Source: Eledone cirrhosa
Taxonomy: Eukaryota
Assembly (NCBI GenBank): GCA_964016885.1
Contig: OZ024740.1
Span: 9,610,001-9,674,000, forward strand
Direction: 5' to 3'
Length of the DNA: 64,000 nucleotides
The position numbers were made by a program, and so were the translations under genes. How positions within the stretch are numbered: position 1 is the stretch's first letter; every line of letters begins with the position of its first letter. A model generated the notes under the pieces. It was given only the letters and a program-made list of their open reading frames with translations, was not told the origin of the DNA and ran no database searches. Of this stretch, positions 1 to 10,800 are shown in pieces.

Positions 1-326
1 AGTATCCGAAGTCTAACACCTCTGCTATAAAAAGCGGAGTCAGCCAAATCTATCATAGAATAGGGGAGGGGTGGGGGTGCTGAAGCTACAAGGGACCGAT
101 GGGCTACCTCGGGTGGGCGAGAAAAAGACGACGACAAAGAAAATGAAGGGATGGGGGAAGGAGGAAATATAGAGGAAGCGATAAAAGAATGTAAAAGAAG
201 ATCTTACGTCTCCATTGGCAAGCGGGGGTTACCCATTACAAAATAGGCAAGTGGGGTGTTATAGCCCTAGTCTACCCCCCACCCCGGGTCATTATGGGGT
301 TTGAGGGCGAGGTAAGTCCTACGTAA

Positions 327-943
327 TCAGTGTTTACATGCAGTAACCAGTTCATCTTTCTTTAGGAGTTGGTCCGTCGAAAACAGCATTTGTAATGTTT
401 CCTCCGAGCATAAATTGCACGGACGGCGTCCTCCCGTGTAAGAGTTGGCTCTGGACAGTAATTTCCAAGTGAGATCAGATCATAGTTAGTTGATGTTGTC
501 CTTGAGATCCCATATGTGGACCGAAAGTGTAGTGGCGTGACGCCGGGCCGGGTTTCGGAAGGTATGTCTGTGTTGGTATAGCCGGGTCTTGAAGTCGCAT
601 GCGGTTAATCCTATATAAGATTTATTGGAGGTGTCCGTGCTCACGTTGCACTGGTAGATCACATTACGGTCTCTGCATCTGTTGTCGAGGGGGCAACTGG
701 ATCTATCAGGACAGTTGCACCTCCTGGTCGGCACTCCACTGCTATTTAGGTTGTTTCTTCCATCGGGGTTGAGTTTTTTGTTGTTGGAGGAGACGATGTT
801 TTGTGCGAAGTTAGGTGTAGTGCTGTAAGAGAGTTTGATGGTATTTTTGTTAATTATGTTGTGGTAGCGGTGTTGTGGTGGGAAGTGTTTTTCAATGAGC
901 CTAAAGAAAATTTTCCCGATGGGAGTTGTCACCTCGGCGTTGT
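327..943 (-). pseudogene. PLE linker + GIY-YIG endonuclease, disrupted
   Basis: ORF 486..932 contains CNCPDRSSCPLDNRC, then NVIYQC...SYIGLT..FKTRLYQH..TTLSVHIWDLK. After the premature stops the same frame continues DLTWKLLSRANSYTGGRRPCNLCSEETLQMLFSTDQLLKKDELVTACKH* (TGA at 327-329). Confidence 0.9.
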
Positions 944-1800
944 GGGGGAGGATTGAACCATGTTACATTGCGTGAGTAGCGGTGTCGCCTGCTGGTTCCG
1001 CTAATGGGAGCTGGACAGTAGGATATTTCCTCCCGGAAACCACTCCGCTTGAGGGCCTGGTTGTAGTAAGGCGCATGTTCATCGAATATCTTCTCATTAG
1101 CTGACAAACGGGATATACGGAGGGAGATGTTTTTGACCAGGTTGTTGGTGATGTTCCTAGGATGGTTAGATCGGCGGTGGATGTAGTGCAGGTTGTCATT
1201 GGGTTTCCTGTATGGGTAGTACAGGTCATTATTGAGATCGAGGGTAACGTCCAGGAAATTAACTCGGGTCAGGGACGTTTGTAGGGTTATTTTAAATCCC
1301 CAGTCGCGGAAGAAGCTGATTAATTGTTTACGGACCCGATCTGTACTACTGGGGTTGTACCCTTTAAGGGTAAGGAGCCCATCATCACGGTACAATCCAC
1401 CACCGAAAGCAGGAAACATATCGGTGAATTTGGCTATAAGGAATAATCCTATAAGATCTGTGACCTCCGCCGAATCAGTAGCGCCCATGCTGACGTCGAA
1501 GGGTGAGTCGGGAGCTCTTTTTATCCATTTGGAGTTGTCAAAGAGTAAGACTGTCTTCCTGGCGTGGAGGATGATTTTTCTTTCCTGGTCGGTGATGGGC
1601 ACAAGTGCTTCGGCGAAGTCCAAGGCGGCAGTAAGTAGCGGTAAAGTGATTGAAGCATAGTAGCTCTCTATGTCGAACTGGATAAATTTAGTGTCTCGTT
1701 TATCCTCCAAATTGCTGAACCATGAGATAACTTCCTGGGTGTTGATCCATAGGCTAAGTCGGGCGTGTTGCTTGACTTTTGGTATCACGCGGTCTAGGAT
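944..1800 (-). pseudogene. PLE reverse transcriptase (palm/thumb), N-terminus missing
   Basis: ORF 901..1788 contains motif A (FIQFDIESYYASI), motif B (VSMGATDSAEVTDL), motif C (GLYRDDGL), motif E (VNFLDVTL), thumb (PYRKPNDNLHYIHRRSNHP) and WFNPP. A +1 frameshift lies in the G5 run at 944-948. Confidence 0.92.
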
Positions 1801-3938: not shown

Positions 3939-4028
3939 AAGGAAGAGTGAGTATGTCGGGTGACAGGTGGGTAAGTAAAACAGCAGGTGACGGTAATTAA
4001 ATCGTTGGCAGGATTATTGAGTAACAGA

Positions 4029-7000
4029 AGGGCGGGGGATTGGCAGTATAGGTAGAGGGTCTGACACCATGCTAGGGTGGTGGATTGGTAGTATTGGTAG
4101 AGGGTCTGACACCATGGTAGGGTGGTGGATTGGTAGTATTGGTAGAGGGTCTGACACCATGGTAGGGTGGTGGATTGGTAGTATTGGTAGAGGGTCTGAC
4201 ACCATGCTAGGGCGGTGGATTGGTAGTATTGGTAGAATGTCAGACACCATGCTAGGGTGGTGGATTGGTAGTATTGGTAGAGGGTCAGACACCATGCTAG
4301 GGCGGTGGATTGGTAGTATTGGTAGAGGGTCAGACACCATGCTAGGGTGGTGGATTGGTAGTATTGGTAGAGGGTCTGACACCATGCTAGGGTGGTGGAT
4401 TGGTAGTATTGGTAGAGGGTCTGACACCATGCTAGGGTGGTGGATTGGTAGTATTGGTAGAATGTCAGACACCATGCTAGGGTGGTGGATTGGTAGTATT
4501 GGTAGAGGGTCAGACACCATGCTAGGGCGGTGGATTGGTAGTATTGGTAGAGGGTCAGACACCATGCTAGGACGGTGGATTGGTAGTATTGGTAGAGGGT
4601 CAGACACCATGCTAGGGCGGTGGATTGGTAGTATTGGTAGAGGGTCAGACACCATGCTAGGACGGTGGATTGGCAGTATTGGTAGATGGTCAGACACCAT
4701 GCTAGGGTGGTGGATTGGCAGTATTGGTAGAGGGTCTGACACCATGGTAGGGTGGTGGATTGGTAGTATTGGTAGAGGGTCTGACACCATGGTAGGGTGG
4801 TGGATTGGTAGTATTGGTAGAGGGTCTGACACCATGCTAGGGCGGTGGATTGGTAGTATTGGTAGAGGGTCTGACACCATGGTAGGGTGGTGGATTGGTA
4901 GTATTGGTAGAGGGTCTGACACCATGCTAGGGCGGTGGATTGGTAGTATTGGTAGAGGGTCAGACAGCATGCTAGGGCGGTGGATTGGTAGTATTGGTAG
5001 AGGGTCTGACACCATGGTAGGGTGGTGGATTGGTAGTATTGGTAGAGGGTCTGACACCATGCTAGGGCGGTGGATTGGTAGTATTGGTAGAGGGTCAGAC
5101 AGCATGCTAGGGCGGTGGATTGGTAGAGGGTCTGACACCATGGTAGGGTGGTGGATTGGTAGTATAGGTAGAGGGTCTGACACCATGGTAGGGTGGTGGA
5201 TTGGTAGTATTGGTAGAGGGTCAGACAGCATGCTAGGGTGGTGGATTGGTAGTATTGGTAGAGGGTCTTACACCATGCTAGGGTGGTGGATTGGTAGTAT
5301 AGGTAGAGGGTCTGACACCATGGTAGGGTGGTGGATTGGTAGTATTGGTAGAGGGTCTGACACCATGGTAGGGTGGTGGATTGGTAGTATAGGTAGAGCG
5401 TCTGATACCATGCTAGGGTGGTGGATTGGTAGTATTGGTAGAGGGTCTGACACCATGCTAGGGTGGTGGATTGGTAGTATTGGTAGAGGGTCTTACACCA
5501 TGCTAGGGTGGTGGATTGGTAGTATAGGTAGAGCGTCTGATACCATGCTAGGGTGGTGGATTGGTAGTATTGGTAGAGGGTCTGACACCATGCTAGGGTG
5601 GTGGATTGGTAGTATTGGTAGAGGGTCTGACACCATGGTAGGGTGGTGGATTGGTAGTATAGGTAGAGCGTCTGATACCATGCTAGGGCGGTGGATTGGT
5701 AGTATTGGTAGAGGGTCTGACACCATGCTAGGGCGGTGGATTGGTAGTATTGGTAGAGGGTCTGACACCATGCTAGGGTGGTGGATTGGTAGTATAGGTA
5801 GAGGGTCTGACACCATGGTAGGGTGGTGGATTGGTAGTATTGGTAGAGGGTCTGACACCATGCTAGGATGGTGGATTGGTAGTATTGGTAGAGGGTCTGA
5901 CACCATGGTAGGGTGGTGGATTGGTAGTATAGGTAGAGCGTCTGATACCATGCTAGGACGGTGGATTGGTAGTATTGGTAGAGGGTCAGACACCATGCTA
6001 GGGCGGTGGATTGGTAGTATTGGTAGAGGGTCTGACACCATGGTAGGGTGGTGGATTGGCAGTATTGGTAGAGGGTCAGACACCATGCTAGGGCGGTGGA
6101 TTGGTAGTATTGGTAGAGGGTCAGACACCATGCTAGGGTGGTGGATTGGTAGTATTGGTAGATGGTCTGACACCATGGTAGGGTGGTGGATTGGTAGTAT
6201 AGGTAGAGGGTCAGACACCATGCTAGGGCGGTGGATTGGTAGTATTGGTAGAGGGTCAGACACCATGCTAGGGCGGTGGATTGGTAGAGGGTCTGACACC
6301 ATGGTAGGGTGGTGGATTGGTAGTATTGGTAGAGGGTCTGACACCATGCTAGGGTGGTGGATTGGTAGTATTGGTAGAGGGTCTGACACCATGCTAGGGC
6401 GGTGGATTGGTAGTATTGGTAGAGGGTCAGACACCATGCTAGGGCGGTGGATTGGTAGAGGGTCTGACACCATGGTAGGGTGGTGGATTGGTAGTATTGG
6501 TAGAGGGTCTGACACCATGGTAGGGTGGTGGATTGGTAGTATAGGTAGAGCGTCTGATACCATGCTAGGGCGGTGGATTGGTAGTATTGGTAGAGGGTCT
6601 GACACCATGGTAGGGTGGTGGATTTGTAGTATAGGTAGAGGGTCTGACACCATGGTAGGGTGGTGGATTGGTAGTATTGGTAGAGGGTCTGACACCATGC
6701 TAGGGTGGTGGATTGGTAGTATTGGTAGAGGGTCTGACACCATGCTAAGGTGGTGGATTGGTAGTATAGGTAGAGGGTCTGACACTATGGTAGGGTGGTG
6801 GATTGGCAGTATCGGTAGAGGGTCTGACACCATGGTAGGGTGGTGGATTGGTAGTATAGGTAGAGGGTCTGACACCATGGTAGGGTGGTGGTTGGTAGTA
6901 TTGGTAGAGGGTCTGACACCATGGTAGGGTGGTGGATTGGCAGTATAGGTAGAGGGTCTGACACCATGGTAGGGTGGTGGATTGGTAGTATAGGTAGAGG

Positions 7001-7623
7001 GTCTGACACCATGGTAGGTGGTGGATTGGTAGTATTGGTAGAGGGTCTGACACTATGGTAGGTGGTGGATTGGTAGTATTGGTAGAGGGTCTGACACCAT
7101 GCTAGGGTGGTGGATTGGTAGTATAGGTAGAGGGTCTGACACCATGTTAGGTGGTAATTGGTAGTATTGGTAGAGGGTCTGACGCCATGCTAGGGTGGTG
7201 GATTGGTATTATTGGTAGAGGGTCTGACACCATGGTAGGTGGTGGATTGGTAGTATTGGTAGAGGGTCTGACACCATGCTAGGGTGGGGGATTGGTAGTA
7301 TTGGTAGAGGGTCTGACACCATGCTAGGGCGGTGGATTGATAGTATTGGTAGAGGGTCTGACACCATGCTAGGGTGGGGGATTGGTAGTATTGGTAGAGG
7401 GTCTGACACCATGCTAGGGTGGGGGATTGGCAGTATTGGGAGAGGGTCTGACACCATGGTAGGGTGGTGGATTGGTAGAGGGTCTGACACCATGCTAGGG
7501 TGGGGGATTGGCAGTATTGGTAGAGGGTCTGACACCATGCTAGGCTGGTGGATTGGCAGTATTGGTAGAGGGTCTGACACCATGGTAGGGTGGTGGATTG
7601 GCAGTATCGGTAGAGGGTCTGAC
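4029..7623 (+). repeat. 45-bp minisatellite, ~80 copies (GGGTGGTGGATTGGTAGTATTGGTAGAGGGTCTGACACCATGCTA)
   Basis: Direct tandem periodicity, seen as a 15-aa period in the ORF track. Occasional 36-bp units, with small indels near 6890-7250. Confidence 0.98.
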
Positions 7624-7663
7624 GTCATACTTTGCAGCAAAGAGTTACGGCCGTTTATGATCT

Positions 7664-7676
7664 GAGTTCAAATTCC
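7664..7676 (+). promoter_or_regulatory. Pol III B box of the SINE (GAGTTCAAATTCC); cognate A box TGGCAGTATCGG at 7599-7610
   Basis: Matches GTTCRANNC, about 55 nt downstream of a TGGCNNNANNGG-type A box. Confidence 0.75.
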
Positions 7677-7811
7677 GCAAAGGTTAACTTTGCCTTTCAT
7701 CCTTACGGGATCGATAAAATAAAGCACCAGTAATGCACTGGGGTCGATTTAATCTATATTTGCCTCCCCCAAATTTGTAGGCCTTGTGCCTATATGAGAA
7801 AACATTATTGA

Positions 7812-10800
7812 GTAACAGAGAAGTTGGTAAGTAACCAGCGAGGTAGGTGTTATACCACACCTACTTAACATTTAACAGAAGTTAATTAACCAGCAATGAA
7901 GGTGCTATACCACACCTAGTTAACATTTAACAGAAGTTAATTAACCAGCAAGGTAGGGGCTATACCACACCTAGTTAACATATAACAGAAGTTAATTAAC
8001 CAGCAAGGTAGATATTATACCACACCTAGTTAATATATAACAGGGAAGTTAATTAACCAGAAAGGTAGGTGTTATACAACACCTAGTTAACATATAACAC
8101 GGAAGTTAATTAACCAGCAAGGTAGGTGTTATACCACACCTAGTTAACATATAACAGGGAAGTTAATTAACCAGGAATGTAGGTGTTATACCACACCTGG
8201 TTAACATATAACAGGGAACTTAATTAACCAGCAAGATAGGTATTATACCACACCTAGTTAACATATAACACGGAAGTTAATTAACCAGCAAGATAGGTAT
8301 TATACCACACCTAATTAACATATAACAGGGAAGTTAATTAACCGACAAGGTAGGTGTTATACCACATCTAGTTAGCATATAAAGGGAAGTTAATTAACCG
8401 GCAAGGTAGGTGTTATACCACATCTAGTTAACATATAACAGGGAAGTTAATTAACCGGCAAGGTAGGTGTTATATCACACCTGGTTAACATATAACAGGG
8501 AAGTTAATTAACCAGCAAGGTAGGTGTTATACCACACCTAGTTAACGTGTAACAAATAAGTTAATTAACCAGCAAGGAAGGTGTTATACCACACCTAGTT
8601 AACGTGTAACAAATAAGTTAATTAACCGGCAAGGTAGGTGTTATACCACACATAGTTAACATGTAACAGGGAACTTAATTAACCAGCAAAGTAGGTGTTA
8701 TACCACACCTAGTTAACATATAACTGGGAAGTTAATTAACCAGCAAGGTAGGTGTTATCCCACACCTAGTTAACATATAACAGGGAAGTTAATTAACCGG
8801 CAATGTAGGTGTTATACCACACCTAGTTAACATATAACAGGGAAGATAATTAACCAGCAAGGTAGGTGTTTTACCACACCTAGTTAACATGTAAAAGAGA
8901 AGTTAATTAACCAGGAAGATAGGTATTATACCACAACTAGTTAACGTATAACAGAGAAGTTAATTAACCAGGAAGGTAGGTGTTATATCACATCTAGTTA
9001 GCATATAACAATGAAGTTAATTAACCAGCAAGTTAGATATTATACCCCACCTACTTAACATATAAAAGAGCAGTTAATTAACCAGCAAGGTAGGTGTTAT
9101 ACCTCACCTAGTTAACATGTAACAAATAAGTTAATTAACCAGCGAGGTAGGTGTTATACCACACCTCGTTAACATATAACAGAGAAGTTAATTAACAAGC
9201 AAGGTAGGTGTTATACCACACCTAGTTAACATATAACAGGGAACTTAATTGACCAGCAAGGTAGGTATTATACCACACCTAGTTAACATATAAAGGGAAG
9301 TTAATTAACCGGCAAGGTAGGTGTTATACCACTCCTAGTTAACATAACAGGGAAGTTAATTAACCAGCAAGGTAGGTGTTATACCACACCTAGTTAACAT
9401 GTAACAGAGAAGTTGATTAACCAGGAAGGTAGGTGTTATGCCAAAATTAATTAACATATAACAGAGAATTTATTTAACCAGGAATGTAGGTGTTATACCA
9501 CACCTAGTTAACATATAACAGGGACGTTAATTAACCAGGAAGGTAGGTATTATAAAATACCTAGTTAACATATAACAGGGAAGTTAATTAACCCTTAGGT
9601 AGGTATTATACCACACCTAGTTAACATTTAACAGAGAAGTTAATTAACCAGCAAGTTAGGTATTATACCAAACTTAGCTAACATTTAACAGGTAAGTTAA
9701 TTAACCAGCAAGGTAGGTGTTATACCACACCTAGTTAACATATAACAGAGAAGTTAATTAACCAGCAAGGTAGGTGTTATACCACACATAGTTAACATGT
9801 AACAGCGAAGTTAATTAACAAGGATGGTAGGTGTTATACCACACCTAGTTAACATATAACAGGGAAGTTAATTAAGCAGCAAGGTAGGTGTTTTACCACA
9901 ACTAGTTAACATGTAACAGAGAAGTCAATTAACCAGCAAGGTAGGTGTTATAGCACACCTAGTTAACATATAACAGGGAACTTAATTAACCAGCAAGGTA
10001 GGTGTTATACCACACCTAGTTAACATATAACAGGGAACTTAATTAACCAGCAAGGTAGGTGTTATACCACACCTAGTTAACATATAACAGAGAAGTTAAT
10101 TAACCAGCAAGGTAGGTGTTATACCACACCTAGTTAACATTTAACAGAAAGGTTAATTAACAAGGAAGGTAGGTATTATACCACACCTAGTTAACATATA
10201 ACAGAGAAGTTAATTAACCAGCAAGATAGGTGTTATACCACACCTAGTTAACATATAACTGAGAAGTTAATTAACCAGGAAGGTAGGTATTATAAAGTAC
10301 CTAGTTAACATATCACAGGGAAGTTAATTAACCAAGAAGGTAGGTATTATACCACAGCTAGTTAACATATAACAGTGAAGTTAATTAACCAGGAAGGTAG
10401 GTGTTATGCCACACCTAGTTAACATATAAAAGAGATGTTAATTAACCAGGAAGGTAAGCATTATACCACAACTAGTTAACATGTGAAAGTGAATTTAACT
10501 AACCAGCAAGGTAGGTGTTATACCACACCTAGTTATCATGTAATGGGGAAGTTAATTAACCAGCAAGGTAGGTGTTATACCACACCTAGTTAACGTATAA
10601 CAGGGAAGTTTATTAACCGGCAAGATAGGTGTTATACCACATCTAGTTAACATTTAACAGAGAAGTTAATTAACCAGAAAGTTAGGTGTTATACCACACC
10701 TAGTTAACATATAACAGGGAATATAATTTACCGGCAACGTAGGTGTTATACCACACCTACTTAACATATAAAATAGAAGTTAATTAACCAGCAAGGTAGG

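What the first reader, a model, noticed from the sequence alone, without database searches (positions are those of the whole stretch)
4013..7819. Minisatellite born inside one SINE: the Pol III A-box head is amplified ~80-fold between intact TSDs
Seen: a perfect 16-bp direct repeat (ATTATTGAGTAACAGA) brackets the whole 3.8 kb. The first unit starts at the SINE 5' end, and the last unit runs seamlessly into the single B box and SINE body. Each unit carries an A-box-like TGGYAGTATTGG. Inference: a ~215-bp SINE grew to 3.8 kb by tandem expansion of its first 45 bp, giving ~80 A boxes feeding one B box. This is a clear snapshot of satellite birth from a SINE, and could alter TFIIIC binding or start-site choice.
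Basis: partly seen in the sequence, partly recalled or inferred. Interest (0 to 1): 0.75.

Follow-up and report, generated by a model that had tools for sequence, protein, structure and literature searches.

The report
Minisatellite spreading between SINE heads
The first 45 bases of a small jumping element are repeated about 80 times inside one intact copy; the same repeat sits inside roughly two hundred or more separate copies, mostly near chromosome ends, and was likely copied in from other copies during DNA repair rather than born here, with no function shown.

Summary
Observation confirmed: an exact 16-bp target-site duplication brackets 81 SINE heads (45-bp unit = SINE bases 1-45) and one SINE body. 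The reading 'born inside one SINE' is not supported. The same head-to-head junction stands before a SINE body at up to 244 places (about 2% of comparable copies), from dimers to a 34-kb array still between its TSD, on bodies of every subfamily sampled. The junction has no microhomology source here, and none of the window's 80 junctions carries its host's own head-end variant. Among sequence-identical SINE heads on the two largest chromosomes, 7 of 23 near the ends are duplicated, 0 of 64 in the interior. Rarer 40- and 50-bp junctions cluster regionally across unrelated insertions. Best model: junction imported by ectopic gene conversion, then local expansion (0.65). The '80 A boxes feeding one B box' idea has no support: only the last A box is within known spacing. 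It is a variant of the SINE-derived satellites of reptiles. This scan noted the same family twice before on other pieces of this genome.

The parts
4013..4028 (+). Left copy of the 16-bp target-site duplication
   Evidence: exact repeat, only two copies in the window
4029..7586 (+). 80 tandem copies of SINE head positions 1-45, joined at one fixed junction (head position 45 to position 1); derived unit type shared with other arrays
7587..7631 (+). Last head, the host SINE's own; carries a head-end variant (A at head position 43) that none of the 80 junctions has
7599..7610 (+). A-box-like motif of the last head (12 nt, one mismatch to a 12-nt form of the consensus); the only one within known spacing of the B box
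7632..7803 (+). SINE body, long 3' variant
   Evidence: 87-89% identity to dispersed copies; tree
7665..7675 (+). Single B-box-like motif, 2 mismatches to the published consensus
7804..7819 (+). Right copy of the TSD; its last 7 bases belong to the degenerate edge of the neighbouring 57-bp satellite

Best explanation
This is one member of a genome-wide family of SINE-head minisatellites: an ordinary SINE copy sits between its target-site duplication, its head likely received the fixed 45-bp head-to-head junction from another array-bearing copy by ectopic gene conversion during DNA repair, and the array then likely expanded in place. Shown: the anatomy, the family, the fixed junction, its presence on unrelated insertions and body subfamilies, its restriction to chromosome ends, and regional clusters of rarer junction types. 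Inferred: (1) a founder junction arose once or a few times elsewhere; (2) a break in a SINE head is repaired from an array through the 45 bp of homology and re-anneals out of register, which leaves the host's own ends, body and TSD intact; (3) arrays grow, shrink and swap units by slippage and unequal or ectopic exchange, most where recombination is presumably high. The array is most likely without function.
For: Family: 14,949 exact junctions; 244 places with junction + head + body start against 11,369 heads at like stringency; 39 of 40 fetched places had 2-64 heads, all with the same junction. Separate insertions: exact TSD of 10 bp or more at 22 of 60 array loci, including a 34,116-bp array with a 14-bp TSD. 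Not one master: bodies of 60 array loci need 20 label changes on the tree, at least 6 forced by well-supported branches, one change in 0% of 200 bootstrap trees. Not copied from the locus's own end: 20 of 39 loci lack SINE bases 1-4 at their 5' end yet have them at the junction; in the window 0 of 80 junctions carry the host's head-end variant, which two unexpanded copies with the same body start share. Position: 32 of 33 places on C1+C2 lie in the outer 12.5% against 10 of 50 plain copies, p=5e-13; among sequence-identical heads 7 of 23 terminal against 0 of 64 interior, p=4e-5, and 20 of 20 unlisted ones checked were single. Control class: the 27-bp junction that an internal 4-nt microhomology explains is dispersed (1 of 6 terminal on C1+C2, p=6e-5 against the 45-bp class). 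Regional spread: all 100 listed of 124 matches to a longer junction are one 50-bp type in C2:18.4-22.0 Mb, on different bodies and mixed with 45-bp units; a 40-bp type has 4 of its 9 places on distal C3, one mixed with 45-bp units. Local growth: trimers share private changes in units 1 and 2.
Against: No conversion event was seen directly; there is no population, pedigree or orthologous-site data. Overall unit similarity does not fall with distance along a chromosome (cosine 0.35 within 10 Mb, 0.36 farther, 0.26 between chromosomes), and the window's closest array is on C5; most of those arrays were picked by likeness to the window. Array status is clustered on the body tree (20 changes against 40.3 shuffled), which partial spread by retroposition would also give, though the plain sample was biased by its search pattern. 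45 bp is short homology for ectopic repair (own knowledge). High recombination at chromosome ends is assumed, not measured. 38 of 60 array loci lack an exact TSD of 10 bp or more.
Confidence: 0.65

Rival explanations
1. Retroposed seed: head-dimer or short-array masters are transcribed from an upstream A box, or chimeric cDNAs form by template switching, and insert as dimers that later expand at chromosome ends.
For: 17 of 39 sampled loci are dimers or trimers, many with TSDs; 5'-truncated first units with full junctions fit truncated insertion of a dimer RNA; the array has no T4 terminator; array status is clustered on the body tree; the three 27-bp loci displayed also have truncated first units, so junctions made outside the locus do occur in a dispersed class.
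Against: Retroposition should scatter dimers like plain copies, but 0 of 64 interior identical heads are duplicated against 7 of 23 terminal, and the dimers and trimers on C1-C4 are themselves distal; several masters would be needed; regional clusters of 40- and 50-bp junctions on different bodies.
Confidence: 0.2
2. Independent birth at this locus by slippage or unequal exchange within the SINE's own head.
For: Intact TSD; several unit variants are private to this array among the loci held; the head is the most G-skewed part of the SINE (G4Hunter 0.92 for the first 25 nt).
Against: The left flank bears no likeness to the unit end, so no microhomology yields this junction; 0 of 80 junctions carry the host's head-end variant; the junction is identical at some two hundred places; non-CpG unit variants found in 0-2 of 61 plain heads are major in 18 of 29 array stretches, most of them chosen by likeness to the window.
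Confidence: 0.05
3. Recurrent de novo junctions at reverse transcription: the enzyme jumps from the RNA 5' end onto short transcripts that stop in the T run at head positions 45-47.
For: The junction joins the SINE's exact 5' end to the start of a T run; a C-to-T variant at position 44, which would lengthen that run, is common at junctions.
Against: No junction with one or two more T among the 100 listed of 124 matches; products should be dispersed, and are not.
Confidence: 0.05
4. Functional A-box ladder that recruits TFIIIC or shifts Pol III start sites and is kept by selection.
For: Each unit keeps an A-box-like motif about as close to consensus as the parent's.
Against: Spacing to the single B box is 54 nt for the last unit and 99 nt for the next, against 30-52 nt in the paper's examples; the B box has lost a further consensus base; copy number runs from 2 to over 2,700 without constraint.
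Confidence: 0.05

Closest known systems
SINE-derived satellites sSat1-3 of squamate reptiles, above all snake sSat3SRP (PMC10702118; main text parts 1-4 of 5 read; supplements not seen)
   Same: Tandem arrays of part of a tRNA-related SINE; one fixed unit at hundreds to thousands of loci; continuum from a few to hundreds of units; terminal unit continuing into SINE sequence; subtelomeric preference; homogeneity between loci.
   Different: Unit here is 45 bp (theirs about 70-290) and is the A-box head from base 1 (snake unit: positions 42-108 with box B). Both SINE ends are usually kept here, often with the TSD; the paper calls loci with both termini uncommon (its supplementary Fig. 8B, not seen) and, in the parts read, does not test how one unit reaches many loci.
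Human tandem repeats of a partial Alu at the 5' side of a full Alu (136 loci) and multilocus TE-derived tandem repeats (PMC3389668; passages read)
   Same: 5' part of a SINE duplicated in front of a full copy, mostly few units; origin unexplained by flanking direct repeats.
   Different: No single fixed junction or chromosome-end restriction reported in the passages read; the authors propose nicking at the endonuclease site.
Mouse VNTR family expanded from B1 SINEs (Bois et al. 1998; seen only as a table row and reference in PMC9659126)
   Same: Multilocus G-rich tandem repeats grown inside separate SINE copies.
   Different: Unit is a 6-mer from a pre-existing dimer in the SINE, so each locus can expand on its own; here the junction is absent from the SINE consensus.

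Membership tests
SINE-derived satellite (sSat) | Repeat unit is a part of a SINE, shorter than the SINE | tested here: met
   unit = head positions 1-45, 5 of 45 differences from a plain head
SINE-derived satellite (sSat) | At least four middle units, terminal unit running on into SINE sequence | tested here: met
   80 units then body; 22 of 24 array stretches with the 3' end in view run into a SINE body
SINE-derived satellite (sSat) | Same unit at many loci | tested here: met
SINE-derived satellite (sSat) | Subtelomeric preference against randomly placed parent SINEs | tested here: met
   32 of 33 against 10 of 50 on C1+C2; telomeres themselves not located
SINE-derived satellite (sSat) | Unit of about 70-290 nt as in the described cases | tested here: not met
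   45 bp; a range of observed cases rather than a definition
tRNA-derived SINE (host element) | Short, non-coding, dispersed in high copy number with TSDs | tested here: met
   at least 49,261 exact head/body matches; TSDs at 19 of 36
tRNA-derived SINE (host element) | A and B boxes in a tRNA-related head | tested here: inconclusive
   A-like motif at position 13 and B-like at 79, one mismatch each in a plain copy; no Rfam match at E 5 or less; ARAGORN finds no tRNA in the window
tRNA-derived SINE (host element) | Pol III transcription and a partner LINE | not testable with these tools
   no RNA run was listed; partner LINE not sought
Direct-repeat-seeded minisatellite (Haber and Louis model, as described in PMC3389668) | 5-10 bp direct repeat flanking the unit at the locus | tested here: not met
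   window flank unlike the unit end; at most 4 of 7 matches at 39 loci; one other locus has an 8-nt match but no TSD
Dimeric SINE that retroposes as a dimer | Dimers dispersed like monomers and tied to one subfamily | tested here: not met
   0 of 64 interior identical heads duplicated; bodies polyphyletic

The most novel reading that the evidence does not exclude
A non-coding tandem junction behaves as a parasite of SINE heads: it spreads from copy to copy by gene conversion, without transposing, has taken over about three in ten sequence-identical young heads near chromosome ends and none in the interior, and turns each converted SINE into a satellite seed that can grow from 90 bp to more than 100 kb between the original TSD. 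Competing junction types (40, 45, 50 bp) spread regionally like alleles.
Probability: 0.4. Interest if true: 0.75.

Novelty: new variant of a known kind. Interest (0 to 1): 0.5.

Why it matters
How one satellite unit comes to occupy many separate loci is an open step in satellite evolution; the reptile paper describes the pattern without testing the route in the parts read, and the human survey could explain the start of only 6% of TE-derived tandem repeats. Here each array sits in a SINE whose TSD, body subfamily and own head variants label the host, and tens of thousands of unconverted copies serve as controls, so spread by DNA conversion, by retroposition and by independent birth make different, testable predictions. 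The single locus is ordinary within its family, and no function is shown.

Tried and rejected
Premature Pol III stop plus template jump as a recurrent source: no junctions with extra T among 100 listed of 124. G-quadruplex as main driver: head is the most G-skewed part, but only 2% of 25-nt windows of the array reach 1.2; left as a possible modifier. Distance decay of unit similarity: not seen within chromosomes. Higher-order block duplication in the window's array: 1 repeated run of three units against 0.26 in shuffles, 221 of 1000 as high. Candidate founder at G000:C1:10.32-10.42 Mb, whose flank ends in an 8-nt match to the unit end: no TSD, so founder or later deletion cannot be told apart. 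One search was uninformative because its gap range included the standard junction; one search replaced it. Subfamily enrichment of arrays could not be judged, as the plain sample's pattern excluded some body starts. Sequencing runs: no RNA holder listed; three RAD-seq runs did not cover the locus, so no empty or unexpanded allele could be sought. Rfam and ARAGORN gave nothing. The association test for the head-end variant counted the window twice and is not used. Literature searches listed no paper on this family or on conversion of SINE heads by a tandem junction; subscription papers are not searched.
Full report
Observation. The window is G000:C1:9610001-9674000 of a 3.0-Gb animal genome, about 9.6 Mb from the end of a 443-Mb contig. 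The 16-bp direct repeat is exact at 4013-4028 and 7804-7819 and unique in the window. It encloses 80 repeat units and a last head at 7587 that continues into a SINE body to 7803. The head plus body matches dispersed copies at 87-89%, and their 5' ends coincide with the unit start. The majority unit differs from a plain head at positions 5, 16, 22, 34 and 38. A head/body pattern has 49,261 exact matches in the genome. TSDs of this family begin with ATTAT; exact TSDs of 10 bp or more were found at 19 of 36 plain copies (1 dropped, no tail found) against 19 of 600 mismatched pairs.

The locus is one of many. The array found 1,278 candidates, 40 scored. Of 27 array stretches fetched around these and around pattern hits, 24 had the 3' end in view and 22 of those, the window included, ran into a SINE body; sizes ran from 445 bp to over 122 kb, and a 34,116-bp array still lies between a 14-bp TSD. 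The junction has 14,949 exact matches. A once-per-array pattern (junction, head, body start; up to 3 mismatches) gave 244 places on most chromosomes against 11,369 for the same pattern without the junction, about 2%; a few of the 244 are inner 50-bp units or chance hits. Of 40 places fetched from the 100 listed, 39 were real: 9 dimers, 8 trimers, 3 with four heads, 6 with 7-8 and 13 with 12-64. Exact TSDs of 10 bp or more were found at 22 of 60 array loci (3 dropped, no tail found).

The junction was not made at these loci. It joins head position 45 to position 1, and the SINE has no internal microhomology at that spacing (sequence). In 20 of 39 loci the first unit lacks bases 1-4, yet the junction has them; flanks match the unit end at no more than 4 of 7 bases. 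In the window the host's head ends in a variant (A at position 43) that two unexpanded copies with the same body start share (both picked by likeness to the window), and 0 of 80 junctions carry it. Non-CpG variants at positions 16, 22 and 34 occur in 2, 0 and 2 of 61 plain heads, whereas the position-34 variant is in at least half the units of 18 of 29 array stretches of the first set (mostly chosen by likeness to the window) and 2 of 39 of the second. A tree of 60 array-bearing and 60 plain bodies needs 20 label changes, at least 6 forced by well-supported branches, and never one in 200 bootstrap trees; the label is clustered (shuffled mean 40.3), but the plain sample was biased by its search patterns.

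Import by DNA conversion or by retroposition? Position decides most. On C1 and C2, 32 of 33 head-duplicated places lie in the outer 12.5% of the chromosome against 10 of 50 plain copies (p=5e-13; tight clusters counted once; the exception is the false positive). Among 87 copies on C1+C2 with an identical 50-bp head and body start (433 in the genome), 7 of 23 terminal and 0 of 64 interior ones are duplicated (p=4e-5); 20 of the other 80 were fetched and all were single. A 27-bp junction, which an internal 4-nt microhomology explains, has 62 matches at 16 places and is dispersed (1 of 6 terminal on C1+C2; p=6e-5 against the 45-bp class). Rarer junctions cluster: all 100 listed of 124 matches to longer junctions are one 50-bp type in C2:18.4-22.0 Mb, on different bodies and mixed with 45-bp units; of 66 matches to shorter junctions a 40-bp type stands at 9 places, 4 on distal C3, with shared private variants and one mixed array. 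These searches fixed re-entry at head position 1, so other junctions were not counted. Against a strictly local process, unit similarity does not fall with distance within a chromosome and the window's closest array is on C5, so exchange would also run between chromosome ends.

Mechanism. Shown: anatomy, family, fixed junction, polyphyletic hosts, terminal bias, regional clusters. Inferred: a founder junction arose elsewhere (one locus with an 8-nt flank match is a candidate but lacks a TSD); a broken SINE head is repaired from an array and re-anneals out of register, gaining units while keeping its own ends, body and TSD; arrays then grow and shrink in place, as trimers with shared private changes and variants private to the window suggest. 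I give this 0.65, retroposed dimer seeds 0.2, and independent birth, recurrent template jumps and a selected function 0.05 each. No event was observed directly, recombination rates were not measured, and the public runs held no RNA and did not cover the locus in other individuals.

The promoter idea. Against the consensus boxes given in PMC10137851 (passages), no unit matches box A exactly, although the units are as close as the parent; the window's B box has 2 mismatches against 1 in a plain copy; the spacer is 54 nt for the last A box and 99 nt for the next, against 30-52 nt in the paper's examples. At most the last unit or two could use the B box.

Comparison. This is the kind described as SINE-derived satellites in reptiles (PMC10702118, parts 1-4 of 5): many loci, one unit, subtelomeric. 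It differs in the shorter A-box unit from base 1 and in keeping both SINE ends, often with the TSD, which makes the route of spread testable; that paper's supplements, not seen, may hold similar loci. Human 5'-partial-Alu repeats are a looser parallel (PMC3389668, passages), the mouse B1 VNTR family another (table row in PMC9659126). PMC4758252 (passages) did not identify the SINE. Searches listed no description of this family. Two earlier notes of this scan on other pieces of the same genome reach a like reading; I had reached mine before that call, and they are not independent evidence. One of them prompted the count of 27-bp junctions and a third pointed to the Alu passage.

Verdict. Real, well-formed, and one of a family of some two hundred or more; not a birth snapshot and not a shown promoter ladder. 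New variant of a known kind; interest 0.5, for the family and its testable mode of spread rather than for this locus.

Noticed in passing
window 7820-34523: A 57-bp AT-rich satellite of about 27 kb starts right at the TSD; the SINE inserted at its degenerate left edge, and a proto-repeat lies left of the SINE (about 3971-3991).
   Followed up: partly
window 34521-64000: A 74-bp G-skewed array (399 copies to the window end, 93% matches) abuts the 57-bp satellite; origin not examined.
   Followed up: no
window about 250-1800, minus strand: Looks by eye like a decayed retroelement coding fragment (reverse-transcriptase-like; recalled impression, not tested).
   Followed up: no
G000:C1:10316706-10417334 (L130, L121, L122): Head array that appears to span about 100 kb (ends fetched, middle not), whose duplicated upstream flank ends in an 8-nt match to the unit end; candidate founder of the 45-bp junction or a later microhomology deletion.
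   Followed up: partly
G000:C1:6535001-6657581 (L129, L128, L072-L082): Head array of more than 122 kb, 5' end not reached, no SINE body at its 3' end.
   Followed up: partly
G000:C2:18.4-22.0 Mb (L215-L226) and G000:C3:358.9-377.2 Mb (L255-L259): Regional clusters of 50-bp and 40-bp junction types on separate SINE insertions, in part mixed with 45-bp units.
   Followed up: yes
L249-L254, L265-L270: A 27-bp head duplication explained by an internal 4-nt microhomology: 62 matches at 16 places, dispersed; the three loci displayed have truncated first units, suggesting formation during reverse transcription.
   Followed up: partly
L212 (G000:C26:11.44 Mb), L242 (C3:71.59 Mb), L246 (C3:241.0 Mb): Other SINE-derived arrays: a 33-bp array from the body, a 33-bp head array and an interior 42-bp head array, each seen at one locus.
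   Followed up: no
L003, L011, L020, L023, L028: SINE copies often sit next to each other, in head-to-tail and inverted pairs, and most TSDs begin with ATTAT, which is also the element's tail.
   Followed up: no
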